From: Salinivirgaceae bacterium
GTDB taxonomy: Bacteria; Bacteroidota; Bacteroidia; Bacteroidales; SZUA-534
Direction: 5' to 3'
Assembly (NCBI GenBank): GCA_017551905.1
Contig: JAFZKK010000149.1
Span: 9-64,008, forward strand
Length of the DNA stretch: 64,000 nucleotides
The notes under the pieces were generated by a model. The model had not been told where the DNA came from. It ran no database searches and saw nothing but the letters and a program-made list of their open reading frames with translations. The translations under genes were made by a program, and so were the position numbers. Shown here piece after piece: positions 51,286 through 64,000 of the stretch. The stretch's first letter is position 1. Each line of letters opens with the position of its first letter.

Positions 51286-52500
51286 TTACATCGCCTTAGG
51301 CATCGTAAAAAAGAACGTGCTTCCGCTGTCTTTAGTGCTTGTGGCCCAGATTTTTCCGTTGTTTTTCTCGACAAATTCCTTGCAGAGAATCAGTCCGAGT
51401 CCGGTGCCTTCAAGCTCGTTGTTTTCGTTGTGGCTCAGGGTGCGGCTGTCGATGCGGAACACCTTAGCCAGCTGTTCCTCGTCCATTCCGGGGCCTTGGT
51501 CGGCAATGCTGACCTCCACCATGTCGTCTTCAACCTCGCGCGCCTTGATTGTGATAGAGCTGTTTTGCGGACTGAATTTCAGTGCGTTCGACACAATGTT
51601 GCGAATCACAAACGTAGTCATATCCTGGTCGGCGTAAATGTCGAGATACGGGTCGGCTTCAGTGTCGATGTTGATGTTTTTCTCTTTGATGACGCCAGCT
51701 TGTTGCTCTACAACGCTGTTTATGACGCTGTTAAGGTTGACGCTCTTGAAGTTGATTTTTATCTGTCCGGTCTGCGAGCGCGCCCATTGCAGCAGGTTCT
51801 CGAGCAGGCCGAAAATCTTGTGCGAGTAGAAGTTTATCTGTTTGATGTACTCGTGGTCTTTGTGCGGATTCGATTGGTATATCCCGCTCAGCATCAGGTC
51901 GGTAATGTTGATGATAGCCGAGAACGGGTTCTTCAGGTCGTGCGAGATTATTGTGAAGAATTTGTCTTTGGCGGCGTTTTTCTGTTCCAGTTCGTTTTTC
52001 TGTTTCTCCAGATTACGCTTCTCAACTACAAGTTTCTCCTGTTCTTTTTGTATCTCGTTGGCTTTCTGAGTCATAGCCTCCTCACGGTTGTTGAAGTTGC
52101 GCAGGCGGCCCAGCAGCGAAATCATCATCTTCTCCCAAAGGTCGGGGCGTTGCGCCACCACTTGGCTGAACCTTTCGCGTGTCAGAATCAGGAACGTTGA
52201 GCCGTGCAGTGTTGTCACACTGGTTGAGCGTGGCGACTCGTCGATGAGCGCGTATTCGCCAAAATATTGGCGGCTGTTGAGTGTGGCAAAGGTATGCTCG
52301 CCATTGTGGATTTTCACGCTTCCGTCGACAATTATGTACATCGATTTGCCCGGCGACCCTTTGGCAAACAAAAGCTCATCTTTCTTATAATGAACCTCTT
52401 TCATGTTGCTTGCCATGGCTGTGAGCGCATCCTCGTCAAAGTCGCGGAACAATTCAACCTGGCGGAGCAGCATAATCGATTTCTGAATATCATCTTGCAT
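51286..52500 (-). CDS. cyclic-nucleotide-binding-domain sensor histidine kinase
   Basis: cNMP-binding domain (LFAKGSPGKSMYIIVDGSVKI...FGEYALIDESPRSTSV), coiled coil, H-box FFTIISHDLKNPF, and HATPase (NALKFS, DQGPGMD, GTGLGL). The ATG at 52500 is preferred over the GTG at 52506. Confidence 0.85.
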   Translation of the reverse strand: MQDDIQKSIMLLRQVELFRDFDEDALTAMASNMKEVHYKKDELLFAKGSPGKSMYIIVDGSVKIHNGEHTFATLNSRQYFGEYALIDESPRSTSVTTLHGSTFLILTRERFSQVVAQRPDLWEKMMISLLGRLRNFNNREEAMTQKANEIQKEQEKLVVEKRNLEKQKNELEQKNAAKDKFFTIISHDLKNPFSAIINITDLMLSGIYQSNPHKDHEYIKQINFYSHKIFGLLENLLQWARSQTGQIKINFKSVNLNSVINSVVEQQAGVIKEKNINIDTEADPYLDIYADQDMTTFVIRNIVSNALKFSPQNSSITIKAREVEDDMVEVSIADQGPGMDEEQLAKVFRIDSRTLSHNENNELEGTGLGLILCKEFVEKNNGKIWATSTKDSGSTFFFTMPKAM

Positions 52501-52657
52501 AAACACGTGTTTTTACATCTCCTAAAAATAAAGAAACTTAGGTAGAAACTTCAAAAAAAAGAGATTTTATTTGATAATATTCCGATAAATGCAGAAAAAC
52601 GGAACTTTTCCGCTTGTGTCTTGCATTTTTTTGTAGATTTAGTAAAATTTTGAAGAT

Positions 52658-54694
52658 ATGAAAGTGCCAAAAATTGTTAAGGACGACCCTTGGTTGAATC
52701 CTTACCGACAAGTAATTACAGACAGAATGCAGCACTGCGCCGATGTTGAGGCTCACTTGACAGGCGGCGGCAAACAGTCGCTTTACGATTTCGCCAACGG
52801 CTATATGTATTACGGTACTTTTTGCGACGGACAGACAACGACAATCCGCGAATGGCTGCCCAACGCAATGCGCGTGACGCTCATAGGCGACATAAACGGC
52901 TGGCAGGAGAGTGCCGATTACGATTTCAAACCGCTCGACGGCGGCAACTGGGAGTTGAAACTGCCGGCGGCAAAGTTCGGGCACGGCTCCATTTTCCGTC
53001 TGAAAGTTTACTGGAACGGCGGCGAGGGCGAGCGCATTCCGGCTTGGTCGCGCAGGGTGGTGCAGGATTCGAAAACCAATATCTTCAGCGCGCAGGTGTG
53101 GTGTCCGCCGCAGCCTTACGAGTGGAAATGCACCGAGCGTCCGAAAGCCGACGAGCCTTTCATCTACGAGGTGCACGTGGGCATGGCGGGCGAGAAGGAG
53201 GCCGTGAGCACATTCAACGATTTTCGCCGCGATGTGCTGCCGCGCGTCATCAAGCTTGGCTACAACACCATTCAGATGATGGCCATTCAGGAGCATCCTT
53301 ACTACGGCTCGTTCGGCTATCATGTGTCGAGTTTCTTTGCCGTCTCGTCGCGGTTTGGCACGCCTGACGACCTCAAGGCGCTCATCGACGAATGTCACCA
53401 GAATGGCATCCGTGTGGTTATGGATTTGGTTCATTCTCATGCAGTTAAAAACGAAAACGAAGGTCTTGGCCTTTACGACGGAACACGCTATCAGTTCTTC
53501 CACAGTGGCGACCGAGGCGTGCATCCGGCGTGGGATTCGTACTGTTTCAATTACGGAAAAGACGAGGTTATCCATTTCCTTCTGTCGAACATAAAATATT
53601 GGCTCGAGGAGTTCCATTTCGACGGTTTCCGTTTCGATGGCGTTACCAGCATGATTTATCTGAATCATGGTCTGGGCGAGGATTTTACGTCGTATGAGCT
53701 TTATTTCAACGGCGCGCAGGACGAGGACGCCATTGTTTATCTGATGCTTGCCAACAAACTGATAAAGCAAGTCAATCCGGAATCGATATCGATTGCCGAG
53801 GAGATGAGCGGTTATCCGGGCTTGGCAATGCCTTTGGCCGACGGCGGTGTCGGTTTCGATTACCGTCTGGCTATGGGAATCCCCGATATGTGGATTAAAG
53901 TGCTGAAAGAGAGCCCGAACGATGAGTCGTGGGACTTGGGGCACATTTATCACGAACTGACTTCGAAGCGCGCCGATGAGCGGACAATCTCGTATGCCGA
54001 GTCGCACGACCAGGCGCTTGTGGGCGATAAGACCATGGCTTTCTGGCTGATGGACAAGGAGATGTATTTCAGCATGCTTGTCACGACGCAGAATCTGCAA
54101 ATCGACCGAGGCATCGCCTTGCATAAGATGATAAGATTGCTGACAATGGCAACGGCCGGCGGCGGCTATTTGAACTTTATGGGCAATGAGTTTGGACATC
54201 CCGAATGGATTGATTTTCCACGTGAGGGCAACAACTGGTCGTATAAATACGCCATGCGCCAATGGAGCCTTGCCGACCGCGACGACTTGAAATACAAATA
54301 CTTGGATGCTTTCGATGTTGCAATTGTGCATCTTCTTCGCGAGCGTCATTTGCTCAAGATTTTCCCGTTCTATGCGCAGCTGGTGAGCCAGGAGAATATG
54401 GTGCTGTCGTTCTCGCGTGGCGATTTGCTGTTTGTCTTCAATTTCCACCCGACGCGCAGCTACACCGATTTCGAGATACCGGTTGTCGAGGGCAAATACA
54501 AGATATTGCTCAGCACCGACGAACTGCAGTTTGGCGGTTTCGGCCGCATCGACGAGGCTATGTCGTACCCGACATCGGTTGCCAGCGTTGACGATAAATC
54601 GACTATAAAACTCTATATACCAGCGCGTTCGGCAATCGTTTTGCAACGGCAGTTTATACCTAATGTTTATCAGCGGTTGCTGGGGAAAAAGTAA
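52658..54694 (+). CDS. glgB: 1,4-alpha-glucan branching enzyme (GH13)
   Basis: GH13 conserved regions are VVMDLVHSHAV, GFRFDGVTSM, IAEEMSG and YAESHDQ. The length is typical of a branching enzyme, with an N-terminal E-set region. Confidence 0.9.
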   Translation: MKVPKIVKDDPWLNPYRQVITDRMQHCADVEAHLTGGGKQSLYDFANGYMYYGTFCDGQTTTIREWLPNAMRVTLIGDINGWQESADYDFKPLDGGNWELKLPAAKFGHGSIFRLKVYWNGGEGERIPAWSRRVVQDSKTNIFSAQVWCPPQPYEWKCTERPKADEPFIYEVHVGMAGEKEAVSTFNDFRRDVLPRVIKLGYNTIQMMAIQEHPYYGSFGYHVSSFFAVSSRFGTPDDLKALIDECHQNGIRVVMDLVHSHAVKNENEGLGLYDGTRYQFFHSGDRGVHPAWDSYCFNYGKDEVIHFLLSNIKYWLEEFHFDGFRFDGVTSMIYLNHGLGEDFTSYELYFNGAQDEDAIVYLMLANKLIKQVNPESISIAEEMSGYPGLAMPLADGGVGFDYRLAMGIPDMWIKVLKESPNDESWDLGHIYHELTSKRADERTISYAESHDQALVGDKTMAFWLMDKEMYFSMLVTTQNLQIDRGIALHKMIRLLTMATAGGGYLNFMGNEFGHPEWIDFPREGNNWSYKYAMRQWSLADRDDLKYKYLDAFDVAIVHLLRERHLLKIFPFYAQLVSQENMVLSFSRGDLLFVFNFHPTRSYTDFEIPVVEGKYKILLSTDELQFGGFGRIDEAMSYPTSVASVDDKSTIKLYIPARSAIVLQRQFIPNVYQRLLGKK

Positions 54695-54824
54695 AGAAGG
54701 CATTAGGCAAAAGGCATAAGTATTTAGGAGTTAGGAATTAGTAATTAACAATGAATGCTTTAAACTTGTTCAACCTGTTCAACTTTTAAACTAAACATTA
54801 AACTCTAAACACTAAACATTTACA

Positions 54825-56516
54825 ATGTCTCTAATATCAATATATCAGGTTTTGCCGCGATTGTTCGGAAACAAGAACACGAATCCGGTTCTGAACGGCT
54901 CGCGCGAGGAGAACGGAGTGGGGAAGATGAACGATTTTACTCCGCACATTTTCAGGCAGATAAAGTCGATGGGATTTACCCACATCTGGTACACGGGGCT
55001 TATTGAGCACGCCCGTTGCACCGCCGACGAACAATTCGGCATACCGGGCGGCAATCCGCGCATAGTCAAGGGCCGCGCCGGTTCACCCTACGCCATAACC
55101 GACTATTATGACATCGACCCCGATTTGGCGGTTTCAGTGCCTAACCGCATGAAGGAATTTGCTGATTTAGTGAAGCGTACACACGCCGCCGGTCTGAAGT
55201 TCATTATCGATTTTGTGCCAAACCATGTGGCGCGTCAGTATCATTCCGATGTCAAGCCTGAAGCCGATTTCGGGCTAAACGACTGTCAGGAGTGGCACTT
55301 CTCGCCGCTCAACGACTTCTACTACACCGGTGAGCCGCTGCATCTGCCTTTCGGCTCGGGCACCAATATCGATTTGCAGACAACATACGAGGAAAATCCG
55401 GCAAAAGCCACCGGCAACGACCAGTTCTCGGCTTGGCCGTCGATTAACGACTGGTACGAGACGGTGAAGCTCAACTATGGTGTCGATTACATGAACAATC
55501 AGCACAAACAGTTTGCTCCTATGCCTGTCCTGTGGCCTAAAATGGTTGATATTCTACTCTATTGGGCGCAGAAAGGTGTCGATGCCTTCCGTTGCGACAT
55601 GGCCGAAATGGTGCCGGTTGAGTTCTGGCATTTCGCGATAGCCAAAGTTAAATCGCAATATCCTGACATTCAGTTTATTGCCGAGGTTTATAATCCGAAT
55701 ATGTATCGCGATTATATCTTCACTGGCGGATTCGATTACCTCTACGACAAGGTTGGCCTTTACGACACGCTGCGAGGCATAACTTGCTGGGGCGCACCGG
55801 CTTACGACATCACCCAGACGTGGAAAAATCTAGAGGGTATCAACAATAAGATGCTCCGTTTTTTGGAGAACCACGATGAGCAACGCATCGCCTCGCGTTT
55901 CTTTGCCGGCTGCGCCGAAAAAGCCATTCCGGCAATGCTTGTCACAGCTACAATCAACCAAGGCGCGCTGATGCTCTATTTCGGGCAGGAGGTGGGCGAA
56001 CCGGCCAATGGCGAGTCGGGCTTCAGCGGCGACGACGGGCGCACCACAATCTTCGATTATTACAACGTTCTGGCGTTTCAGCGCTGGTATAACGGCGGAA
56101 AAGCCGATGGCGTCTTGCTTAGCGACAGTGAGCGCCGGCTCCGCGATACATACGTTTCGATTTTGCGATTGGCAACCACCGAAAAATGCTTCACCGACGG
56201 AGCCTTCTACGATTTGATGTGGGCCAACAGCAATGTCGATAGCTCAAAGATTTACGCCTATCTGCGTCATACTGAGGGCGAAGCTATGCTTGTGGTTGTC
56301 AATTTTGATGCTTGCAGTGCCCGTGATTTCAACATTCATATTCCGCAGCATGCCTGGCAGACAATGGGTTTCAACACAATGGGCGAGGTGTCGGTTAGTG
56401 CTGTTTTTGGCGGCAGCCTGAGCATACGGCAATCGGCACAAAGCATCGACGAGACAGGTCTGTTCGTTCAAATGCCGCCCATGAGCGGAGTGGTGTATAA
56501 AATAAAGGAAGTCTGA
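54825..56516 (+). CDS. alpha-amylase-family glycoside hydrolase (GH13)
   Basis: GH13 regions are IIDFVPNHVA, DAFRCDMAEMV, FIAEVY and FLENHDEQR. Confidence 0.85.
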   Translation: MSLISIYQVLPRLFGNKNTNPVLNGSREENGVGKMNDFTPHIFRQIKSMGFTHIWYTGLIEHARCTADEQFGIPGGNPRIVKGRAGSPYAITDYYDIDPDLAVSVPNRMKEFADLVKRTHAAGLKFIIDFVPNHVARQYHSDVKPEADFGLNDCQEWHFSPLNDFYYTGEPLHLPFGSGTNIDLQTTYEENPAKATGNDQFSAWPSINDWYETVKLNYGVDYMNNQHKQFAPMPVLWPKMVDILLYWAQKGVDAFRCDMAEMVPVEFWHFAIAKVKSQYPDIQFIAEVYNPNMYRDYIFTGGFDYLYDKVGLYDTLRGITCWGAPAYDITQTWKNLEGINNKMLRFLENHDEQRIASRFFAGCAEKAIPAMLVTATINQGALMLYFGQEVGEPANGESGFSGDDGRTTIFDYYNVLAFQRWYNGGKADGVLLSDSERRLRDTYVSILRLATTEKCFTDGAFYDLMWANSNVDSSKIYAYLRHTEGEAMLVVVNFDACSARDFNIHIPQHAWQTMGFNTMGEVSVSAVFGGSLSIRQSAQSIDETGLFVQMPPMSGVVYKIKEV

Positions 56517-56766: not shown

Positions 56767-56996
56767 TGTTACAACTTTTAGTTTCCCGATTACGAACATA
56801 CGAAAAAATACTATTGAGGTTACGATTTAGTCGAAAAAAACTGAATAAGATGGTTGGAAAGCCTGCATTTCGCAGGTTGACAAGAAATGTTTTTTTATGG
56901 GATACATATTTAAAAAAGAGTATTATTGTAGTTTAAAATGGAATATAGCCGGAGATATATTCAATATTCACGGCTGCAAAATTGGATTTAACAGAT

Positions 56997-58076
56997 ATGG
57001 ACGGATTCAAAAACATTGAGATTAAGAACTTCAGAGGCATTGACCATCTGACAATTGATGATTGTTCACGCGTGAATGTCTTTCTCGGGCAAAACGGTTC
57101 GGGGAAGTCATCAATCCTTGAAGCATTATTGATGATTGCAGGAATGTCAAATCCGGAACTTCCCCGAAATATCAATATGTTACGTTCAAAGGGAACATAT
57201 GGGCATTTTCTTGACGTAAGGTATATGTTTCACAATTTAATGTTAATGAATCCTCCGGAAATTTCCACAATTCAAACAAAAGGAGCGAAACGACATCTTA
57301 CTCTAAAAATGCCATTTGTTTTCGACGAACAATCTCAAACCACAACGCCGATAGGCCAAATCCAACGGTCCGACGCAATGGTTCAAGTCAATCAAGTGGA
57401 GATGAATTTTGATATTACAGAAGACGAAATCGTTAATAGGTATAAAAGCACATTGTCCTTCAACCAACAAGGTCCCATTAGGGGAAAAATTGCTGACGGA
57501 TATCAAGAAAAAATGTATGCATCACTGATTCCTGCGAATATTCCTACCGGGAATTCGACAAGTGATTTGTCGGAATTAGTAAAACGGAAAATGAAACAAT
57601 TGGTTGTTGACCGGCTTGTCTATTTTGATAATAGGATAACGACCATTGAAGTATTGTCTGACGGCGTTTTTGTTGGTATCGAAGGTGTGCCGGAATTATT
57701 ACCGGTCACAATGCACGGCGATGGTATGTTCCGTTATTTGACAATTGTGGCGGCGTCCGCCAATCCAATATCCGATGTTGTTCTGATTGACGAAATCGAA
57801 AATGGTCTGCATTATTCAGCCTACAAAAAACTCTGGGAAGCCATCTTTGCTTTGGCAACCGAAACAAACAAACAAATATTTATAACAACCCACAGCAAGG
57901 AAACTCTATACCGGTTGAACGAAATGCTTGAAGAGAAACCCTGCTACCAAGATGCATTGCGGCTATATACAATAGAGAACACCAAACTTAAAGGGCAGCA
58001 AGCATACAAATATTCCTTTGAGGAACTGAATGCCGCTTGCAAGAATGGTGTGGAAATTAGAAGTTTAGCATTATGA
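56997..58076 (+). CDS. ABC/SMC-type ATPase (AAA_21-like; AriA/OLD-family ATPase-like)
   Basis: Walker A GQNGSGKSS, signature-like HGDGMF, Walker B VVLIDEIENGLH, and His-switch ITTHS. The ATG at 56997 is preferred (the track start at 56982 is a TTG). Confidence 0.75.
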   Translation: MDGFKNIEIKNFRGIDHLTIDDCSRVNVFLGQNGSGKSSILEALLMIAGMSNPELPRNINMLRSKGTYGHFLDVRYMFHNLMLMNPPEISTIQTKGAKRHLTLKMPFVFDEQSQTTTPIGQIQRSDAMVQVNQVEMNFDITEDEIVNRYKSTLSFNQQGPIRGKIADGYQEKMYASLIPANIPTGNSTSDLSELVKRKMKQLVVDRLVYFDNRITTIEVLSDGVFVGIEGVPELLPVTMHGDGMFRYLTIVAASANPISDVVLIDEIENGLHYSAYKKLWEAIFALATETNKQIFITTHSKETLYRLNEMLEEKPCYQDALRLYTIENTKLKGQQAYKYSFEELNAACKNGVEIRSLAL

Positions 58077-58684
58077 AAGAACGTTTTCACATTATTGTTG
58101 AAGGAATTGCTGATTTAGTGTTTTTTGAACAATACTACCAACATCTGTTCGGGAAACCAGCGCCAGAAGGTTTTATTTTTAAAACTGACGGAAAAGACAA
58201 TTTGCATAAGTTTGTGAACAAGATGCGTAGTATGACGGCCAATGACGGGGTGAATCTTGTTATCTTCGATGCAGATAAAGACATAGATGCAAGGCGAAAC
58301 GAATTATTGGAGTGGAAAGAAAAAGCGGGCGTTAACTTCGAGTTGTTTTTGCTGCCAAATAACAAAAATAAAGGTGCCTTGGAAGATTTGTTGGAAAGCA
58401 TCATAAATCCGAATAACCGACCGATCTTCAATTGTTGGGAAGATTACGAAAAAGAACTTGTCAAATTAGAGATTCCTGGCCGCACACCACCGCCATTAAC
58501 CACTCCCGCCAAGAAAACAAAGATTTATGGATATTTGGAGGCATTGCTTGGACCAACGAATGACGAAAAAGAATTGATAAAAGAGCGAAATAGAGAGTAT
58601 TTCAACACAAAACATTGGAATTTGGATGCGGAGTATTTGGAGCCGTTGAGGAGGTTTTTAATTGAGCATTTAAAAGAAAACTAA
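58073..58684 (+). CDS. TOPRIM-like protein (DUF4435/DUF4276-like; AriB/OLD-nuclease-like partner of the ATPase)
   Basis: N-terminal IIVEGIADLVFF (TOPRIM Glu) and VIFDADKD (DxD). About 200 aa. The start overlaps the ATPase stop (ATGA at 58073-58076). Confidence 0.55.
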   Translation: MKERFHIIVEGIADLVFFEQYYQHLFGKPAPEGFIFKTDGKDNLHKFVNKMRSMTANDGVNLVIFDADKDIDARRNELLEWKEKAGVNFELFLLPNNKNKGALEDLLESIINPNNRPIFNCWEDYEKELVKLEIPGRTPPPLTTPAKKTKIYGYLEALLGPTNDEKELIKERNREYFNTKHWNLDAEYLEPLRRFLIEHLKEN

Positions 58685-59904
58685 TGAAAAAGAAAAACTA
58701 TACAGTAATTGACCTTTTTGCAGGGTGTGGGGGCTTATCGCTAGGCTTATATCAAGCCGGCTGGAAGGGTCTTTTTGCTATCGAAAAGAATGCATTTGCA
58801 TTTGAAACTCTGAAATACAATCTGATTGACAACAAAAAACACTTCCAATGGCCTGATTGGCTGCCTCAAAAGGAACATGACATCAATGAAGTGCTGGAAA
58901 AATATCCAAAGCAATTGGAAGCATTGCAAGGCAAGGTTGATTTGGTAGCAGGAGGACCACCTTGTCAAGGTTTTTCCATGGCAGGGAAACGTGTTGAAGA
59001 TGATGTGCGTAATCAATTAGTATTCTCGTATATTAAGTTTATCGACTTAGTGCGGCCGAAAATGATTCTTTTTGAAAATGTAAAAGGTTTTACATACGCT
59101 TTCGACAAAGGGAAATCAACTTCAACCGAGAATGAACCTTATTCTCACAAAGTAATTCGTGAATTGAGAAACTTGGGATACAATGTAAGACCCCACGTGA
59201 TTGATTTTTCTGAATACGGCGTACCACAACGCCGCAAACGTTTTATTCTTGTTGGGATTCGACAAGAATTAGGTGCACCTGAGCAATTTGAGGATTTGTT
59301 GAAAGCCAATCGCGATACTTTTTTGACAAAAAAAGGATTGAAAACAACCACCACTTTGCAAGATGCCATTTCAGACCTTTTGCGTTCCAATGGGGAAGTT
59401 TCTTCTCCAGACAGAAAAGGGTTTTATTCTGGAATATATGATAAGAAAAAACTTACGGCATACGAAAAAATAATGCGTGGAGATTACCCAAAAACACATG
59501 ATATAGCCGATAGCCATAGTTTTGCCAAACAAACACCAGATAAAATCAATTGTTACAAACGGTTGCTTGCTGAATACCCACAACGAGGTAAACGGATTGA
59601 CGGGAAATCCCGTGAGCAGTGGGGTATCAAACAACGAGGTATTACGGTGCTGGATCCCAATGCCGTTTCGCCAACCATTACGGGGCATCCTGACGATTAT
59701 CTGCACTATTGTGAGCCTCGTATCATGACCGTTCGTGAGTGCGCTCGTATCCAATCGTTTCCCGATTGGTACGAGATTAAGAAAAAGTACACCACTGGCG
59801 GCAAGATGCGCAAGTTGGAAGTTCCTCGTTATACACAAATCGGCAATGCCATTCCGCCTTTGTTTGCAGAACAAGCGGGGAATGTACTTAAAATGATGAT
59901 ATAA
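58684..59904 (+). CDS. dcm: DNA (cytosine-5)-methyltransferase
   Basis: Motif I DLFAGCGGLSLG, motif IV GGPPCQGFS, motif VI ENV, motif VIII QRRKRF, motif X GNAIPPLF. Confidence 0.95.
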   Translation: MKKKNYTVIDLFAGCGGLSLGLYQAGWKGLFAIEKNAFAFETLKYNLIDNKKHFQWPDWLPQKEHDINEVLEKYPKQLEALQGKVDLVAGGPPCQGFSMAGKRVEDDVRNQLVFSYIKFIDLVRPKMILFENVKGFTYAFDKGKSTSTENEPYSHKVIRELRNLGYNVRPHVIDFSEYGVPQRRKRFILVGIRQELGAPEQFEDLLKANRDTFLTKKGLKTTTTLQDAISDLLRSNGEVSSPDRKGFYSGIYDKKKLTAYEKIMRGDYPKTHDIADSHSFAKQTPDKINCYKRLLAEYPQRGKRIDGKSREQWGIKQRGITVLDPNAVSPTITGHPDDYLHYCEPRIMTVRECARIQSFPDWYEIKKKYTTGGKMRKLEVPRYTQIGNAIPPLFAEQAGNVLKMMI

Positions 59905-59907
59905 GAT

Positions 59908-62457
59908 ATGGCAAGTCTTCACTTTAAAACAAATGTGCAAATAAAAAGTATCATTGGTAAAGATCTTATCAATGATGATAATATTGCCATCCTTGAACTC
60001 GTCAAGAATTCCTTTGATGCAGATGCAAAACGAGTGGATATTTCATTTCTGAACCTTAAAGAAAATGACGATAGCGAAGTCGAGGAATATTCGCATAAAA
60101 CCTCGAAATTGATATTAGCTGATGATGGAGTCGGAATGGACATAGTGGATATTCGTGAGAAATGGTTAAATATCGCTTATTCCGAGAAAAAAACAAAGTC
60201 CAGACAGTATAATAGATTAATGGCTGGAGCCAAAGGTGTTGGACGTTTTTCATGTGACAGGTTAGGCAAATATCTTAATTTATACTCTACGAAAGATAGC
60301 AACACATACTATTCTTTAAAGATAGATTGGAAAAAATTTGAAATAAATGACAAAGATACAGAAATACAATCTATTGCTCTGGATTATGAAGTGTTAACTT
60401 CTTCGGAGTTATTGCAACGTGGCATCCAACCGTTTAAGCATGGTGTTGTCTTGGAGATCATAAAATTGCGCAGCAATTGGGTTGCATATGATGGCAATCG
60501 CTGGATAACAGACAAATTAACAAACTTGAAAAAGTATCTCGAAAAACTCATCAATCCCAATCAGGCATTTGAGAAGAATGATTTTGGTATATATCTAAAT
60601 GCACCAGAATTTTTGGCAGAGAATGCCGAACAGGAAGAAAATGACAAGTTTATAGGCAAAGTAGAAAATACGATTTTTCAGAAACTTGATTTTAAAACAA
60701 CAAGCATTGAGTGCAAATCAATAGAAGGTGGCTCTCAAATACAAACAACTCTTAAAGATAAAGGAGAAACTATTTATTGGATTAAGGAAGTATCGGATTA
60801 TTATCCGGCCATCAAGGATTTTAAAATCACTTTATATTTCCTTAATACTTATGCTAAAGCCTTTTTTACCAAACAAACAGGTATTCGCTCTGTTGATTAC
60901 GGTTCTATTTTTTTGTTTCTTAATGGGTTTAGAATACCTCCGTATGGAGAATTTGGCGATGATTGGTTGAAACTTGATCAAAGGCGTGCACAAGGCTATG
61001 CGCGTTTTATTAGTGCTCGTGATTTGGTTGGTCAGATAGAAATATTGGATGTAGATGAAACTTTTCAGATTGTATCCAGCAGGGAAGGATTGGTCAAAAA
61101 CGACAACTATGACATACTTACGAATAAAAAAAATGGTTTATTTTATAGGGTATTGAGACGATTGGAAAGGTATGTCGTTGATGGTTTGGATTGGGATAGT
61201 ATTCCTGAAGAAGATAGAAACAAAACGTCAGAAATCGAGAAGAAAATTATTAGTGGTGAACTTGTTGAAAAAGATTTAAAATATAAAGAAGATTCTAATA
61301 TAAAGCGACGTAGAATCTATGAAAGTATACATTATATTATTAATGCAAATCCGCAAAAGGTAATAGAATTATATATTAATGAGGACTTGATTGAGTCAAA
61401 AGTCGCAGAGGAAAAAGTGCTGGCTGAACAAGAATTTTCCCAGCTATTATCCGACTTTGAAAATAAAAAAGTATCTGGTGAACTTTTGGCACAAATATTA
61501 AGAAGAAAGGCAGAAGAGAGTGTGGAATTAGAGAAACAATTGGCTGCTTTCTCAAGATATACTACAACAGAGGCCACCTCTAAAGCTATAGCAGAGATTC
61601 AACAGTATAAAAAAACGATAGAAGAACAAACGCATGTTATTGAAGCTCTGAAAAAACAATTGGACGAAATCCAAAAGGAGATTGACGCGACAAAACAGGC
61701 TGCCCACATACGTATCTCGACTGCTGAAAAGAAGCAACAAGAAGCGGAAAGAGAGAGAGATTTGTTCAAACAAGCCAATACATACCTACAATCCACGCGA
61801 ACCATATCTGAGGAAGAAGAATCTTTTATACACATCATAAATGTCTATGCAGCAGAAATTGAACCGGCGTTTGATAAGATTGACCATATTGTAAAGTCAA
61901 ATAGTTCTATATCGAAAGAGTTTATTCTTGAGATTGGAGTCATTCGCGCTTTCTTTGATAAAATCATAAGCACAGCGAGTCTGTTGACAAAAGCTAACAT
62001 AAAAAAACTTGCAGATAAAGAGATAATAAATTTATCCGATTTTATCGTTGAATACATAAATAAGTGTTCGGAAGTTCTCTTTAGGGATATAGATTTTAAA
62101 ATCATCAATGAGAAAAATGCAGAATATTTCGGAGCATATAGTTTATTGGACATATCTGTATTGATAGATAATTTAATTAGCAATGCGAAAAAAGAGCATG
62201 CTGATAAAATACAAATAAATATCTTCCAAAAAGAGAACAAATATGTTATAGATTTTTCAGATTCTGGTAATGGAGTTTCAGACCCCACTATAGGAAAGCA
62301 CATGTTTGACATAGGTGTAACTACCCGCTATGGAGGATCTGGAATAGGCCTCGCATCAGTTAAAAAGATAGTGAACGATATGAATGGGAAAATCTCGTTC
62401 TTGGGGAATAATATATATCTCAAAGGAGCAACATTTAGAATAGAATTTGACATATGA
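59908..62457 (+). CDS. dual-GHKL protein: N-terminal MORC/Hsp90-like ATPase (HATPase_c_3-like), coiled coil, C-terminal histidine-kinase-like ATPase
   Basis: N-terminal module: ELVKNSFDADA (N-box), LADDGVGMD (G1), GAKGVGRFS (G2). Long K/E/Q-rich helical segment. C-terminal module: LIDNLISNAKKE (N-box), DFSDSGNGV (G1), GGSGIGLASVKK (G2). A candidate phospho-acceptor motif, ESFIHIINVY, lies upstream of the second module. Confidence 0.7.
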   Translation: MASLHFKTNVQIKSIIGKDLINDDNIAILELVKNSFDADAKRVDISFLNLKENDDSEVEEYSHKTSKLILADDGVGMDIVDIREKWLNIAYSEKKTKSRQYNRLMAGAKGVGRFSCDRLGKYLNLYSTKDSNTYYSLKIDWKKFEINDKDTEIQSIALDYEVLTSSELLQRGIQPFKHGVVLEIIKLRSNWVAYDGNRWITDKLTNLKKYLEKLINPNQAFEKNDFGIYLNAPEFLAENAEQEENDKFIGKVENTIFQKLDFKTTSIECKSIEGGSQIQTTLKDKGETIYWIKEVSDYYPAIKDFKITLYFLNTYAKAFFTKQTGIRSVDYGSIFLFLNGFRIPPYGEFGDDWLKLDQRRAQGYARFISARDLVGQIEILDVDETFQIVSSREGLVKNDNYDILTNKKNGLFYRVLRRLERYVVDGLDWDSIPEEDRNKTSEIEKKIISGELVEKDLKYKEDSNIKRRRIYESIHYIINANPQKVIELYINEDLIESKVAEEKVLAEQEFSQLLSDFENKKVSGELLAQILRRKAEESVELEKQLAAFSRYTTTEATSKAIAEIQQYKKTIEEQTHVIEALKKQLDEIQKEIDATKQAAHIRISTAEKKQQEAERERDLFKQANTYLQSTRTISEEEESFIHIINVYAAEIEPAFDKIDHIVKSNSSISKEFILEIGVIRAFFDKIISTASLLTKANIKKLADKEIINLSDFIVEYINKCSEVLFRDIDFKIINEKNAEYFGAYSLLDISVLIDNLISNAKKEHADKIQINIFQKENKYVIDFSDSGNGVSDPTIGKHMFDIGVTTRYGGSGIGLASVKKIVNDMNGKISFLGNNIYLKGATFRIEFDI

Positions 62458-63158
62458 GAACACATTGCTTAATAATAGATGATGATAATCAGGAAGAATA
62501 TTTCAATACTCATGTGCAGCGCGTATTAGGAGCTGAAGGTATTGAAGTCGTTCCTGTTTTTATCAAACCTACAGAGCGAAAATACATAAAACCAGACCAT
62601 TCCGGTTTGGATATAGATTCCATTATTTCGGATTGTAATAACTTGATAGAAACATTAGATGTATCCATCATTGTTTCTGATTATAAGATTGCCACAAGAA
62701 AAGATTCTTTTACTGGTGTGGATATAGTTTTAGCTCTTATAGAAAGATATCCCCAAATTTATAAGATATTATATTCTGCCACAATTAAAGATGCCATTAA
62801 ACAAGTCTTATCATTATTGCCTGCGAAAGCTAAAATTGATGATATAGATGTCGATAAAGTTATTGAAGATTTGGCAAGGATAGCCAAAATAAATGATTTT
62901 GTCAGTGGTAAAGGGTATGAGCAGAAACTAATAAAACATCTTCGCAATCCGGAAATACAATATAAGCAGCATTTAATCAATGTTCTTAAAGAATGTGCCC
63001 CAGATATTGTATTTAAATCATGTTATCCTCCGTTTGTTGGAAAGACATTAAAGGAAATTGGGAAAGAAATAGAATCTGATACACTCCAAGGACGTGAATT
63101 TCAGGAAGAATTGATTCGTCAAACACTTGCATATATAGTAGCCGTCAATCATGAGTAA
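62454..63158 (+). CDS. receiver-like (REC-fold) protein with uncharacterised helical C-terminal half
   Basis: CLIIDDD (beta1 acidic cluster), SIIVSDYKI (candidate phospho-acceptor Asp76, nt 62679-62681), KILYSAT (beta4 Ser/Thr). The start overlaps the upstream stop (ATGA). Confidence 0.45.
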   Translation: MRTHCLIIDDDNQEEYFNTHVQRVLGAEGIEVVPVFIKPTERKYIKPDHSGLDIDSIISDCNNLIETLDVSIIVSDYKIATRKDSFTGVDIVLALIERYPQIYKILYSATIKDAIKQVLSLLPAKAKIDDIDVDKVIEDLARIAKINDFVSGKGYEQKLIKHLRNPEIQYKQHLINVLKECAPDIVFKSCYPPFVGKTLKEIGKEIESDTLQGREFQEELIRQTLAYIVAVNHE

Positions 63159-63792
63159 AACTGTTTGTATATATTCTCAAGAGAGGGACGGTTCTACGGA
63201 TTTCCTAAAACCTCTATATGACCATATTTGTACGACGCTCTCTGCAGATGGCGTTGGCTATGATGCGGATAGTGAAGAGGATACTATTTCCAGAATATAT
63301 GATGCCACTAAGGATGCAGATACAATTATTTTCTTAGGGCATGGTAATAGCAAGGGGCTATATGCATGTGTTCAGGATAATTTTGAATTATTCAATCAGA
63401 AGAATGTTGCTATGTTGACTGATAAGTCATTGTTCCTACTTGCGTGTAGATCATCTGATTTTATAAAAAGATTCTCCTTAACTAATGCTATCGGCTTTGG
63501 GCATTTACCTACAAGTAATGAAGATGCTAAACATTGGAATAATGAGCATAGTATCGCATTGAATGATTTTTCTAAAGATGATATTAAACTTTACGATAAC
63601 GCAATAGTAAGTATCCTCTACAATGCGATAGCCCCCGAAACAATATCAAATTCCAATCTGCTATATAATAGGATTAAGTTACAAGCGAGTATGGAAATTG
63701 TCAAGTGTCTTATTCTGCACAAAGATAACCCGCATTACCGGAAGATAGCCGATTTGTTATTCTATTTGCAGAAAGATATACGGATACAATAA
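63151..63792 (+). CDS. hypothetical protein with caspase/CHAT-like His...Cys dyad pattern
   Basis: A hydrophobic strand plus GHG (TIIFLGHGNSKG, His64 at 63340-63342). About 35 residues later, a hydrophobic strand plus AC (SLFLLACRSS, Cys99 at 63445-63447). It overlaps the upstream gene by 8 nt. The function is inferred only from this pattern. Confidence 0.35.
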   Translation: MSKTVCIYSQERDGSTDFLKPLYDHICTTLSADGVGYDADSEEDTISRIYDATKDADTIIFLGHGNSKGLYACVQDNFELFNQKNVAMLTDKSLFLLACRSSDFIKRFSLTNAIGFGHLPTSNEDAKHWNNEHSIALNDFSKDDIKLYDNAIVSILYNAIAPETISNSNLLYNRIKLQASMEIVKCLILHKDNPHYRKIADLLFYLQKDIRIQ

Positions 63793-63821: not shown

Positions 63822-64000
63822 ATGAGGAAAAAAGCCGTAACTATTATGCCCAAGAAAAAATATACATTCATAGACCTATTTGCAGGAGCTGGCGGGCTTT
63901 CTGAAGGTTTTATTAGAGCAGGATTTGAACCTGTAGCGCACATTGAAATGAACAAGTATGCGTGTGACACTCTTCGCTCAAGGATGAAACACTATGGCTA
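63822..64000 (+). CDS. dcm: second DNA (cytosine-5)-methyltransferase, N-terminal fragment (continues past window end)
   Basis: Motif I is FIDLFAGAGGLSEGF. The start is either ATG 63822 or ATG 63846. The ORF is open at the window edge. Confidence 0.85.
   Translation, partial: MRKKAVTIMPKKKYTFIDLFAGAGGLSEGFIRAGFEPVAHIEMNKYACDTLRSRMKHYG

What the first reader, a model, noticed from the sequence alone, without database searches (positions are those of the whole stretch)
59908..62457. One polypeptide carrying two different GHKL ATPase modules separated by a long coiled coil
The N-terminal module has N-box ELVKNSFDADA, G1 DDGVGMD and G2 GAKGVGRF, which is the MORC/Hsp90/MutL-like HATPase_c_3 flavour seen in R-M-linked ATP-binding proteins. 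The C-terminal ~120 residues form a second, histidine-kinase-flavoured module (NLISNAKKE, DSGNGV, GGSGIGL).

Between them are about 200 residues of K/E/Q-rich helix. A short motif, ESFIHIINVYAAEIE (His642, nt 61831-61833), lies where a DHp phospho-acceptor helix would sit. A receiver-like gene overlaps its stop codon. I do not know of a described family that fuses a MORC-like GHKL to a histidine-kinase transmitter.
Basis: partly seen in the sequence, partly recalled or inferred. Interest (0 to 1): 0.8.

Follow-up and report, generated by a model that had tools for sequence, protein, structure and literature searches.

The report
MORC-like ATPase fused to histidine kinase
This gene really does encode one soluble protein that joins a MORC-like DNA-clamp ATPase to a histidine-kinase transmitter, but the architecture was already described in 2021. 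Here it sits in a four-gene DNA-methylase-linked cassette that probably defends against phages, whose output (a receiver protein plus a caspase-like protein) has not been described.

Summary
ORF 59908-62457 (849 aa) has HATPase_c_3 at residues 25-156 and HATPase_c at 750-848. An AlphaFold model matches MORC2/3/4 ATPase modules at the N-terminus and DHp+CA histidine-kinase cores at the C-terminus. His642 lies in the first helix of a helical hairpin, 117 residues before the N-box, and is invariant in 54 relatives of 30-48% identity.

The novelty claim fails. Bellieny-Rabelo et al. 2021 described HATPase_c_3 + HEF_HK + HATPase_c proteins with an adjacent receiver-like gene and an upstream C5-methylase. 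A 2025 preprint validated a cousin, Ambrosia, as anti-phage.

What is new here:
- This lineage (at least 574 species) is not recognised by PF19191 or PF19192.
- Its receiver proteins carry no DNA-binding domain.
- In 81 loci the cassette is Dcm - MORC-kinase - receiver. The output is a REC-HEPN fusion (50 loci), a REC-only protein with an MvaI/BcnI nuclease, or, as in this window (21 loci), a REC-helical protein plus a 213-aa protein with an invariant His-Gly...Cys caspase-type motif.
- Close relatives keep the sensor half (about 82% identity) but swap the transmitter (about 27%) together with the receiver type.

Most likely this is a methylation-linked defensive phosphorelay with a post-translational effector. 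No biochemistry exists.

The parts
58684..59904 (+). C5 cytosine DNA methyltransferase (Dcm, 406 aa), first gene of the cassette
   Evidence: PF00145 E 5.5e-60 and TIGR00675. Its stop codon lies 3 nt before the kinase ATG. A Dcm gene lies immediately upstream of the kinase in about 70 of 81 loci.
59908..62457 (+). MORC-like GHKL / histidine-kinase hybrid (849 aa, soluble)
   Evidence: No transmembrane segment (maximum Kyte-Doolittle 19-residue window 1.33). Identical to MBR5959072.1, 'ATP-binding protein', Salinivirgaceae bacterium MAG.
59908..60387 (+). N-terminal Bergerat-fold ATPase (residues 1 to about 160): catalytic Glu30, Asn34, Asp37, G1 D72-G74-G76, G2 G107-K109-G110-G112
   Evidence: PF13589 at residues 25-156. 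All listed residues are invariant in 54 relatives.
60388..61377 (+). Transducer/S5-like and middle domain of the MORC-like module (residues about 161-490), the most conserved part of the protein
   Evidence: Foldseek alignments to MORC2/3/4 GHKL+S5 modules span 470-550 columns. Identity among close relatives is 71-83%. Invariant residues include P345, G347, D352, R371, G375, R392 and G394.
61381..61794 (+). Coiled-coil linker (residues 492-629), including a single 75-residue helix 555-629
   Evidence: Its length varies. 11 of 16 close relatives either match the window's linker length or differ from it by a multiple of 7 residues. This is the recombination breakpoint between the sensor and transmitter halves.
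61810..61989 (+). DHp-like helical hairpin (H635-663, H670-694); predicted phospho-acceptor His642 (codon 61831-61833)
   Evidence: Foldseek matches DHp+CA cores: EnvZ chimera 4kp4 (TM 0.74, rmsd 3.9 over 225 columns), WalK 4u7o and HK853. His642 is invariant. The His-to-N-box spacing is 117 residues (range 109-126).
62020..62451 (+). Histidine-kinase catalytic (CA) domain, residues 705-848: N759, D785-G787-G789, F800, G810-G812-G814
   Evidence: PF02518 E 1.5e-17. PDB sequence hits are to WalK, PrrB and EnvZ. The box residues are invariant or nearly so.
62454..63158 (+). Receiver (REC) protein, 234 aa: acidic pair D9-D10, predicted phospho-acceptor Asp76 (codon 62679-62681), Y107-S108, then a helical C-terminal domain of about 115 aa with no DNA-binding or HEPN match
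   Evidence: ATGA overlap with the kinase stop. hhalign to the REC domain of the 300-aa class gives 97% probability, E 9e-11. 38 of 50 members of that class hit PF00072. The profile's best PDB hits are response regulators.
63151..63792 (+). Fourth gene ('g4'), 213 aa: alpha/beta domain plus helical bundle with invariant His64-Gly65 (63340-63345), Cys99 (63445-63447), Ser101 and Gly115-Phe116. A candidate clan-CD (caspase-like) cysteine protease.
   Evidence: 8-nt overlap with the receiver gene. Present in all 21 loci with a 220-245-aa receiver. AlphaFold pLDDT 94.4. The top Foldseek hits are caspase-7, -3 and -8, but they are weak. The profile aligns HG and C to caspase-1 His237 and Cys285.

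Best explanation
The 849-aa protein is the sensor kinase of a self-contained four-gene cassette: Dcm methylase, MORC-kinase, receiver protein and a caspase-like protein. The cassette lies in a low-GC defence island.

Proposed mechanism:
1. The N-terminal MORC-like GHKL+S5 ATPase takes the place that a sensor domain occupies in ordinary histidine kinases. By analogy with MORC2/3 it would dimerise on ATP binding and clamp DNA.
2. The state of that clamp is passed down a long coiled coil to a DHp/CA transmitter.
3. The transmitter autophosphorylates His642 and passes the phosphate to Asp76 of the next gene's receiver domain.
4. The receiver does not regulate transcription. It controls an effector post-translationally. 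In sister cassettes the effector is a HEPN RNase fused to the receiver, or a co-encoded MvaI/BcnI nuclease. In this subtype it is the translationally coupled 213-aa protein with a caspase-type His/Cys dyad.
5. The cognate Dcm most probably marks host DNA, so that only unmodified (invading) DNA, or loss of methylation, switches the relay on.

Shown here: domain architecture, predicted folds, invariant catalytic residues, operon structure and co-variation of transmitter with receiver type.
Inferred: the phosphotransfer itself.
Speculative: the DNA or methylation signal, and protease activity of the fourth protein.
For: - Two intact GHKL modules with all nucleotide-binding residues invariant, including the GHL catalytic Glu30.
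- MORC-like and DHp+CA folds.
- His642 is invariant across 54 relatives of 30-48% identity, although its flanks vary.
- A receiver gene lies immediately downstream in essentially every locus, and a Dcm gene immediately upstream in about 70 of 81.
- The receiver has the conserved D, D, S/T and K/R positions and matches REC profiles.
- No helix-turn-helix in any receiver class.
- Class A receivers carry invariant R140-G141 and R243-N244-x3-H248, the HEPN Rx4H signature.
- Class C pairs a REC-only protein with an MvaI/BcnI nuclease.
- Partner-specific exchange: P0117 is 83/82/70% identical to the window protein over residues 1-600 but only 26-27% over 601-849, and it pairs with a REC-HEPN. P0086 shows the same break and pairs with a different REC+g4 set.
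- g4 evidence.
- Defence context: AbiLi/AbiLii genes directly upstream, a second methylase downstream and a GC drop from 0.48 to 0.34-0.40.
- A cousin system, Ambrosia, is experimentally anti-phage and needs its receiver aspartate.
Against: - There is no biochemical or genetic test of this lineage.
- PF19191, PF19192 and all HisKA-type models fail to match.
- His642 is followed by Ile rather than the Glu/Asp used by HisKA kinases, and that column is variable.
- The caspase similarity of g4 is weak (Foldseek E 2e-3, TM 0.36-0.40, mixed with flavodoxin-like folds; sequence E about 0.4).
- Some close relatives add an HNH_2 nuclease after g4, so g4 may be an accessory rather than the effector.
- Nothing shows that the MORC module binds DNA or reads methylation.
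- No PADLOC model matches the kinase, receiver or g4.
Confidence: 0.6

Rival explanations
1. It is a transcription-regulating two-component system. The kinase phosphorylates the receiver, which switches on neighbouring restriction-modification genes. This is what the 2021 paper suggested and what the Ambrosia working model proposes.
For: PMC8011034 speculates about regulatory control of R-M systems. Ambrosia's AbrC is a REC-wHTH protein and its genes are induced on infection. A second methylase gene follows the cassette. In a 78%-identical relative, HNH_2 and LlaJI-type genes follow it.
Against: The window receiver and all three receiver classes lack any detectable DNA-binding domain. The largest class is fused to a HEPN RNase-type domain instead. 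Most cassettes are bounded by a gap or a strand switch and contain no nuclease gene to regulate.
Confidence: 0.12
2. It is a guard of the methylase or R-M system rather than a DNA sensor. The MORC-kinase monitors the Dcm protein or the methylation state and fires when a phage inhibits it, as PrrC and RloC do for type I R-M systems.
For: Dcm and the kinase are almost always translationally coupled. PMC3710099 proposes that paraMORC-HEPN fusions act analogously to PrrC and RloC. Class C embeds a complete MvaI/BcnI R-M pair.
Against: There is no evidence of a Dcm-kinase contact. The MORC-like fold with its S5 domain resembles DNA clamps. The cassettes work with very different Dcm lengths and positions, including convergent downstream copies.
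Confidence: 0.15
3. The C-terminal kinase module does not signal. The protein would be a paraMORC-type R-M subunit with two ATPase sites, His642 would be structural, and the receiver-like protein would never be phosphorylated.
For: No HisKA or HEF_HK model matches, and no acidic residue follows the histidine. The N-terminus resembles BbrUII/HgiDII restriction enzymes.
Against: His642 and the receiver's Asp76 are invariant or nearly invariant over wide divergence. The His-to-N-box spacing is typical of kinases. The DHp+CA fold matches active kinases. The transmitter co-varies with receiver type, as cognate kinase-regulator pairs do. No nuclease domain is detectable in the protein.
Confidence: 0.08
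4. The fourth protein is not a protease effector. It would be a regulatory partner, such as a phosphate sink, a phosphatase or a pseudo-receiver with a flavodoxin-like fold. The true effector would be elsewhere, for example HNH_2 in relatives.
For: Foldseek hits mix caspases with flavodoxin-like proteins at similar scores. Its conserved residues sit after strands 3, 4 and 5, where receiver domains keep theirs. An HNH gene follows g4 in two close relatives.
Against: The invariant His-Gly and Ala/Ser-Cys, each preceded by a hydrophobic strand, fit the clan-CD protease signature and align in register with caspase-1 His237 and Cys285. HNH_2 is absent from the window and from most of the 21 loci.
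Confidence: 0.3

Closest known systems
HATPase_c_3 + HEF_HK (PF19191) + HATPase_c kinase-like proteins with Response_reg_2 (PF19192) partners (Bellieny-Rabelo et al. 2021, PMC8011034)
   Same: Same three-part architecture ('group 1'). Soluble. A receiver-like gene is adjacent, a C5-methylase is upstream, R-M and Vsr/HNH_2/MvaI_BcnI genes are nearby, and paraMORC ancestry is proposed.
   Different: The window protein, 54 diverse relatives and several proteobacterial relatives give no PF19191 hit. PF19192 matches one relative only, below threshold. No Glu/Asp follows the histidine. The paper reports no further domain in the receiver proteins, whereas here they carry HEPN, or a helical domain plus a caspase-like partner. 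That study was purely computational.
Ambrosia anti-phage system of Pseudomonas (bioRxiv 10.1101/2025.09.30.679545)
   Same: A methylase, a 'sensor histidine kinase/HSP90-like ATPase', a receiver protein and a nuclease in one cluster. Experimentally defensive, and the receiver aspartate is required.
   Different: Ambrosia has an XRE regulator, an N6-adenine methylase, a REC-wHTH receiver (a transcriptional model) and an HNH nuclease. The window has a C5 methylase, no XRE, no wHTH and no HNH. I could not obtain the AbrB sequence, so homology is not tested.
MORC and paraMORC GHKL+S5 ATPases (Iyer et al. 2008, PMC2292703; MORC2/3/4 structures)
   Same: Bergerat ATPase with a catalytic Glu plus an S5-type transducer. 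Best structural matches. Found in R-M gene neighbourhoods with cytosine methylases, Vsr and HNH.
   Different: The described paraMORC1-5 families end in nuclease, TIR-like or unknown domains, not in a DHp+CA kinase transmitter.
Detocs defensive two-component system (Rousset et al. 2023; from my own knowledge, no paper retrieved)
   Same: A cytoplasmic kinase-to-receiver phosphorelay used for phage defence, with a non-transcriptional enzymatic effector.
   Different: Detocs uses a TPR sensor, a receiver-only buffer protein and a receiver-PNP effector. It has no methylase and no MORC module. No PADLOC model matched the kinase, receiver or g4.
BbrUII/HgiDII family restriction enzymes (NCBIfam NF050001)
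   Same: The N-terminal GHKL domain aligns (residues 28-188, 55 bits). Both partner with C5 methylases.
   Different: The score is far below the 550-bit cut-off and covers only the ATPase domain. There is no counterpart of the rest of those 659-aa enzymes.
Clan CD cysteine peptidases (caspases, legumain, gingipain), for the fourth gene only
   Same: The His-Gly ... Ala/Ser-Cys signature follows hydrophobic strands. The top Foldseek hits are caspases, and the dyad aligns with that of caspase-1.
   Different: No Pfam peptidase or CHAT hit. Low TM scores. Much smaller (about 135-residue core), with an added C-terminal helical bundle.

Membership tests
paraMORC-histidine kinase, 'group 1' of PMC8011034 | N-terminal HATPase_c_3 domain | tested here: met
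   PF13589 at residues 25-156, E 1.1e-18.
paraMORC-histidine kinase, 'group 1' of PMC8011034 | C-terminal HATPase_c domain | tested here: met
   PF02518 at residues 750-848, E 1.5e-17.
paraMORC-histidine kinase, 'group 1' of PMC8011034 | Central HEF_HK (PF19191) DHp domain, with the core His followed by Glu/Asp | tested here: not met
   No PF19191 hit at E up to 10 on the excised region, nor in 54 relatives or other relatives. His642 is followed by Ile. A DHp-like hairpin with an invariant His is nevertheless present. I could not verify directly that PF19191 is in the library; its sibling PF19192 is.
paraMORC-histidine kinase, 'group 1' of PMC8011034 | Adjacent gene with a Response_reg_2 (PF19192) domain | tested here: inconclusive
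   An adjacent receiver-like gene is present, but it has no PF19192 hit. One relative's receiver hits PF19192 at 22 bits, below the 27-bit cut-off. REC homology is shown by other means.
paraMORC-histidine kinase, 'group 1' of PMC8011034 | C5-methylase upstream; soluble protein | tested here: met
   Dcm lies 3 nt upstream. No hydrophobic segment.
Two-component sensor histidine kinase (transmitter core) | CA domain with N, G1, F and G2 boxes and an ATP lid | tested here: met
   N759, D785xGxG789, F800 and G810xGxG814 are invariant or nearly so. The fold matches WalK, EnvZ and HK853 cores.
Two-component sensor histidine kinase (transmitter core) | DHp helical hairpin carrying a conserved His about 105-120 residues before the N box | tested here: met
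   H635-663 and H670-694. His642 is invariant. The spacing is 117 residues.
Two-component sensor histidine kinase (transmitter core) | Match to a HisKA-type sequence family | tested here: not met
   No HisKA, HisKA_2, HisKA_3, HWE_HK or HEF_HK hit.
Two-component sensor histidine kinase (transmitter core) | Dimeric four-helix bundle; autophosphorylation and phosphotransfer | not testable with these tools
   Only a monomer prediction was possible. No biochemistry.
MORC/paraMORC GHKL+S5 ATPases | Bergerat motifs with a catalytic Glu, followed by an S5-type transducer domain | tested here: met
   E30, N34, D37, D72, G74, G76, G107, K109, G110 and G112 are invariant. Foldseek matches MORC2/3/4 over 470-550 columns, TM (target) 0.5-0.6.
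MORC/paraMORC GHKL+S5 ATPases | ATP-driven dimerisation and DNA clamping | not testable with these tools
   Inferred from the MORC2-DNA structural matches only.
Ambrosia defence system | Five genes: XRE regulator, N6-adenine methylase, HATPase kinase, REC-wHTH, HNH nuclease | tested here: not met
   The window has a C5 methylase and no XRE, wHTH or HNH gene. HNH_2 is present only in some relatives.
Detocs | TPR-kinase DtcA, receiver-only DtcB, receiver-effector DtcC | tested here: not met
   No PADLOC hit for the kinase, receiver or g4 beyond noise. No TPR domain. I did not check that PADLOC-DB 2.0.0 contains Detocs models, so the absence of a PADLOC hit is weak evidence.
Response-regulator receiver domain (for the 234-aa protein) | (beta-alpha)5 domain with an acidic pair after beta1, an Asp after beta3, Ser/Thr after beta4 and Lys after beta5 | tested here: met
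   D9 is invariant; D76, S108 and G88 are conserved in at least 90% of sequences; K/R152 is conserved. hhalign to class A REC gives 97% probability. The PDB profile hits are response regulators. No structure model was made and there is no Pfam hit for this protein itself.
Clan CD cysteine peptidase (for the 213-aa protein) | His-Gly and Ala-Cys catalytic dyad, each after a hydrophobic strand; caspase-hemoglobinase fold | tested here: inconclusive
   The motif is met and invariant in 68 sequences, and it aligns in register with caspase-1. The fold match is top-ranked but weak (E 2e-3, TM 0.36-0.40) and mixed with flavodoxin-like folds. No Pfam hit.

The most novel reading that the evidence does not exclude
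The cassette is a 'restriction-modification system without a restriction nuclease'. A MORC-type ATP-driven DNA clamp reads the methylation state of DNA set by the cognate Dcm. It converts that reading directly into a His-to-Asp phosphorelay. The phosphorylated receiver then unleashes a caspase-like protease (in sister cassettes, a HEPN RNase) to abort infection. This would be the first case of a MORC ATPase acting as the input domain of a kinase, and of a two-component relay activating a caspase-like protease in bacterial immunity.
Probability: 0.3. Interest if true: 0.8.

Novelty: new variant of a known kind. Interest (0 to 1): 0.5.

Why it matters
MORC ATPases are important chromatin regulators in eukaryotes, and their bacterial relatives are barely studied. 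A natural fusion that wires a MORC-like clamp to a kinase gives a direct biochemical read-out, histidine phosphorylation, of what activates such a clamp.

The lineage is very widespread: 430 clusters at 50% identity below E 1e-30, and at least 574 species across many bacterial phyla and some archaea. It is tightly tied to a cytosine methylase. Its outputs are interchangeable and non-transcriptional (HEPN, caspase-like protein, MvaI/BcnI nuclease).

If the relay works as proposed, it would extend defensive two-component signalling beyond Detocs and Ambrosia. It would also link epigenetic self-marking to abortive-infection effectors. The architecture itself, however, is already published and in Pfam, so the two-GHKL fusion alone is not a discovery.

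Tried and rejected
- **PF19191/PF19192 membership.** I scanned the whole protein, the excised DHp region, 54 diverse relatives, 50 class A receivers and proteobacterial and plasmid relatives. There was no PF19191 hit anywhere and only one sub-threshold PF19192 hit.
- **Known defence-system models.** PADLOC gave only noise for the kinase (DruC, E 0.08) and the receiver (PDC-M49A, E 1e-3), and nothing for g4.
- **MADS (methylation-associated defence system).** The upstream AAA ATPase and DUF3226 proteins hit the MAD3 and MAD4 models weakly, but they match AbiLi and AbiLii better. No MADS model matches the kinase. The literature search found nothing.
- **Supplementary tables of the 2021 paper.** I wanted to check whether Prevotella or Salinivirgaceae members were in its data set, but the tables are not held.
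- **Is the receiver's C-terminal domain a decayed HEPN?** hhalign gives no support (probability below 1%). Only an 'RQTLAY' versus 'RNxLAH' resemblance remains.
- **Is HNH_2 a core component?** It is found near only about 4 of 81 loci, plus two close relatives, so it is rejected as core.
- **Heptad periodicity of linker length.** It is clear in close relatives but ambiguous in distant ones, where the anchor columns are unreliable.
- **Other dead ends.** A plasmid tblastn search found only distant relatives matching the N-terminal half. The Detocs literature search returned nothing.


Full report
**1. The observation**

The ORF at 59908-62457 (+) is real and encodes 849 aa.

Pfam reports two independent GHKL domains well above threshold:
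- HATPase_c_3 at residues 25-156 (E 1.1e-18)
- HATPase_c at residues 750-848 (E 1.5e-17)

NCBIfam shows the N-terminal domain resembling the ATPase end of BbrUII/HgiDII restriction enzymes. The C-terminal domain resembles many sensor kinases. PDB sequence hits for the C-terminus are WalK, PrrB and EnvZ.

The protein has no hydrophobic segment. It is identical to MBR5959072.1, 'ATP-binding protein', from a Salinivirgaceae bacterium MAG.

**2. Structure**

An AlphaFold2 model built on 54 relatives has mean pLDDT 82.6. From N- to C-terminus it shows:
- an alpha/beta ATPase domain and a second mixed domain (residues 1 to about 490)
- helices 492-518 and 524-549, and one 75-residue helix at 555-629
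- a two-helix hairpin (635-663, containing His642, and 670-694)
- an alpha/beta domain at 705-848

Foldseek against the PDB returns two classes of hit:
- MORC2-DNA, MORC3, MORC4 and Hsp90 for the first half (E about 1e-11, 470-550 aligned columns)
- DHp+CA kinase cores for the last 220 residues (EnvZ chimera 4kp4 with TM 0.74 and rmsd 3.9; WalK; HK853)

So the protein is a MORC-like GHKL+S5 module joined by a coiled coil to a canonical transmitter.

**3. Conservation**

In 54 relatives of 30-48% identity the following are invariant:
- MORC module: E30 (the GHL catalytic base), N34, D37, D72, G74, G76, G107, K109, G110, G112
- His642
- kinase module: N759, G787, F800, G812, G814, with D785, G789 and G810 at 90% or more

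His642 stays invariant even where its flanks change completely. The His-to-N-box distance is 117 residues (range 109-126), which is typical of kinases.

The residue after the histidine is Ile here and varies across the family, unlike the Glu/Asp of HisKA and HEF_HK. No HisKA-type Pfam model matches.

**4. It is a large family with a fixed gene order**

An exhaustive search of 1.84 billion representative proteins gives 430 clusters below E 1e-30. A scan of one genome per species found relatives in at least 574 stretches. They span Bacteroidota, Proteobacteria, Acidobacteriota, Firmicutes, Planctomycetota, Verrucomicrobiota, Chloroflexota and some archaea.

Using my own ORF calling and iterated HMMs on 86 loci plus the window:
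- A C5-methylase lies immediately upstream of the kinase, usually abutting or overlapping it, in about 70 of 81 distinct loci. In a few loci it is downstream or convergent.
- A receiver-like gene lies immediately downstream in essentially all loci that are not cut by a contig end.

**5. Three output classes**

- **Class A (50 loci).** The receiver is about 300 aa. 38 of 50 hit PF00072, best E 3.6e-9. Its C-terminal domain has invariant R140-G141 and R243-N244-x3-H248, the HEPN Rx4H signature. There are scattered weak hits to HEPN Pfam families.
- **Class B (21 loci, including this window).**
  - The receiver is about 235 aa. Its REC domain is homologous to class A (hhalign 97%, E 9e-11). D9 is invariant and D76, G88 and S108 are nearly so. 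Its best PDB profile hits are response regulators.
  - The C-terminal helical domain is unrelated to HEPN by profile comparison.
  - This receiver is always followed by a translationally coupled gene of 210-250 aa, 'g4'.
- **Class C (3 loci).** The receiver is REC-only, about 135 aa. In two of the three loci (L028, L054) the order is a long Dcm, an MvaI/BcnI-family nuclease, the kinase and the REC; in the third (L085) a Vsr gene follows the REC.

No receiver class has a DNA-binding domain.

**6. The fourth gene**

g4 (63151-63792, 213 aa) has no Pfam, NCBIfam or PADLOC hit. In 68 homologues, H64, G65, C99, S101, G115 and F116 are invariant.

Its AlphaFold model is very confident (pLDDT 94.4). 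It consists of an alpha/beta sandwich followed by a helical bundle.

Foldseek's first hits are caspase-7, procaspase-3 and procaspase-8 (probability 0.96-0.97). These are weak (E 2e-3, TM 0.36-0.40) and are interleaved with flavodoxin-like proteins.

The sequence profile picks caspase-1 p20 chains as 13 of its 17 PDB hits. It aligns 'fLgHG' to 'MSHG' (His237) and 'LsC' to 'QAC' (Cys285) in register, at a non-significant E of about 0.4.

The pattern of a hydrophobic strand then His-Gly, followed by a hydrophobic strand then Ala/Ser-Cys, is the clan-CD peptidase signature (established knowledge). I regard 'caspase-like cysteine protease' as the best reading, but it is not a secure one.

**7. Transmitter and receiver travel together**

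Among close relatives the sensor half is strongly conserved but the transmitter is exchangeable.

| Relative | Identity to window, residues 1-160 / 161-500 / 501-600 | Identity, residues 601-700 / 701-849 | Partner |
|---|---|---|---|
| P0117 | 83 / 82 / 70% | 26 / 27% | class A REC-HEPN ('RNDLAH') |
| P0086 | 80 / 81 / 71% | 28 / 36% | a different class B receiver plus g4 |

The breakpoint lies in the coiled coil. There, 11 of 16 close relatives either match the window's linker length or differ from it by a multiple of seven residues.

Co-inheritance of the DHp+CA module with the receiver type is what is expected of cognate phosphotransfer partners.

**8. Context in the window**

From about 56 kb the GC content falls from about 0.48 to 0.34-0.40.

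Six genes are chained by overlapping or nearly abutting stop and start codons:
- an AbiLi-like AAA ATPase (56982-58076)
- an AbiLii/DUF3226 TOPRIM-like protein (58073-58684)
- Dcm
- the kinase
- the receiver
- g4

The AbiL pair is not conserved next to the cassette elsewhere, so I treat it as a neighbouring system.

A second C5-methylase starts at 63846, 53 nt after g4, and runs off the window. In a 78%-identical relative the order is Dcm, kinase, receiver, g4, HNH_2, Dcm, AAA_5, RE_LlaJI. The second methylase therefore probably begins a LlaJI-type system. The window lacks the HNH_2 gene.

**9. What is already known**

- Bellieny-Rabelo et al. 2021 (PMC8011034):
  - It described 'HATPase_c_3 + HEF_HK + HATPase_c' proteins (174 of 222).
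  - These show 91.6% linkage to a receiver-like gene, upstream C5-methylases, enrichment of type II R-M, Vsr, HNH_2 and MvaI_BcnI genes, and paraMORC ancestry.
  - It deposited PF19191 and PF19192.
  - It was computational only. It found no further domain in the receiver proteins and suggested a regulatory role.
- Iyer et al. 2008 defined paraMORCs in R-M operons.
- Anantharaman et al. 2013 noted paraMORC-HEPN fusions as analogues of PrrC and RloC.
- A 2025 preprint validated Ambrosia (XRE, N6 methylase, 'sensor kinase/HSP90-like ATPase', REC-wHTH, HNH) as anti-phage. A D60A receiver mutant is inactive.
- DefensePredictor (2026) lists HATPase and REC domains among predicted, unvalidated defence domains.

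The fusion is therefore not new. This lineage is not captured by the Pfam models, and neither its HEPN output nor its caspase-like output is described in the papers I could read.

**10. Mechanism and verdict**

The best-supported model has four steps:
1. The MORC-like ATPase is the input.
2. The coiled coil transmits its state to the transmitter.
3. His642 is phosphorylated by the CA domain, and Asp76 of the receiver accepts the phosphate.
4. The receiver gates an effector post-translationally. Here that is probably g4; in sister cassettes it is HEPN or a nuclease.

Dcm would provide the self mark.

The architecture, conservation, gene order and co-variation are shown. Phosphotransfer is inferred. 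The DNA or methylation signal and the protease activity are speculative.

Rivals are transcriptional control as in Ambrosia, a PrrC-like guard of the methylase, a non-signalling second ATPase, and g4 as a regulator rather than an effector.

Overall this is a confirmed observation with a correct structural interpretation and an incorrect novelty claim. It is an uncharacterised, widespread variant of a published kind of system. Interest is moderate.

Noticed in passing
window 56982-58684 (+): An AbiLi-like AAA_15/AAA_21 ATPase (364 aa; PADLOC AbiLi E 2e-59) and an AbiLii/DUF3226 OLD-TOPRIM-like protein (203 aa). They overlap each other (ATGA), and the second overlaps the Dcm start (TAATG). A second defence system is therefore translationally chained to the cassette. 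Both also give weak MADS MAD3/MAD4 hits.
   Followed up: partly
window 63846-64000 (+): A second C5-methylase gene (MPKKKYTFIDLFAGAGGLSEGF...) starts 53 nt after g4 and is cut by the window end. In a 78%-identical relative (L093) the equivalent methylase is followed by AAA_5 and RE_LlaJI genes, i.e. a LlaJI/McrBC-like system. That relative also has an HNH_2 gene after g4, which this window lacks.
   Followed up: partly
loci L015-L084 (e.g. L016:9343-10296, L091:7570-8496): The commonest partner of this kinase family is a protein of about 300 aa that fuses a receiver domain to a domain with invariant RG and RNxxAH (HEPN Rx4H). This is a phosphorylation-gated HEPN RNase candidate that I did not find described in the papers I read.
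   Followed up: partly
P0117 / L091 and P0086 / L089 versus window 59908-62457: Relatives with about 82% identity over residues 1-500 have only about 27% identity over residues 601-849, and they pair with a different receiver class. This indicates recombination in the coiled coil that swaps the whole output module (transmitter plus receiver plus effector).
   Followed up: yes
window 61381-61794 (residues 492-629) and alignment A1: 11 of 16 close relatives either match the window's coiled-coil linker length or differ from it by a multiple of 7 residues (7, 14 or 21, as repeated 'KKQKEAE'-type units), so helical register appears to be kept. The pattern is unclear in distant relatives.
   Followed up: partly
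L028:3529-9654 and L054:3605-9654: A third cassette type: a long Dcm (with an Arm DNA-binding domain), an MvaI/BcnI-family nuclease with an N-terminal extension of about 160 aa, the MORC-kinase and a stand-alone 135-aa receiver. L085 has a Vsr gene after the receiver.
   Followed up: partly
window 63100-63155 (receiver residues about 216-234): The receiver's C-terminal 'RQTLAY' sits where class A proteins have the HEPN 'RNxLAH', and some class B relatives keep 'AH'. It may be a decayed HEPN domain, but profile comparison gives no support (probability below 1%).
   Followed up: partly
L001:10547-12641 (Prevotella histicola-type contig): In one metagenomic copy the receiver gene is split (31 aa and 140 aa) and g4 is truncated (158 aa) next to a transposase-like gene, while the Dcm and kinase genes are intact. 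The output module appears to decay in some strains.
   Followed up: no
window 51286-52506 (-): A conventional cytoplasmic histidine kinase (406 aa). From reading the translation only, it has an N-terminal cyclic-nucleotide-binding-like region, an 'ISHDLKNP' H-box and a standard CA domain. It is unrelated to the finding.
   Followed up: no
window 52658-56516 (+): Two glycoside-hydrolase-type genes (678 aa and 563 aa, alpha-amylase/branching-enzyme-like by eye). They mark the ordinary chromosomal flank before the low-GC island begins at about 56.5 kb.
   Followed up: no
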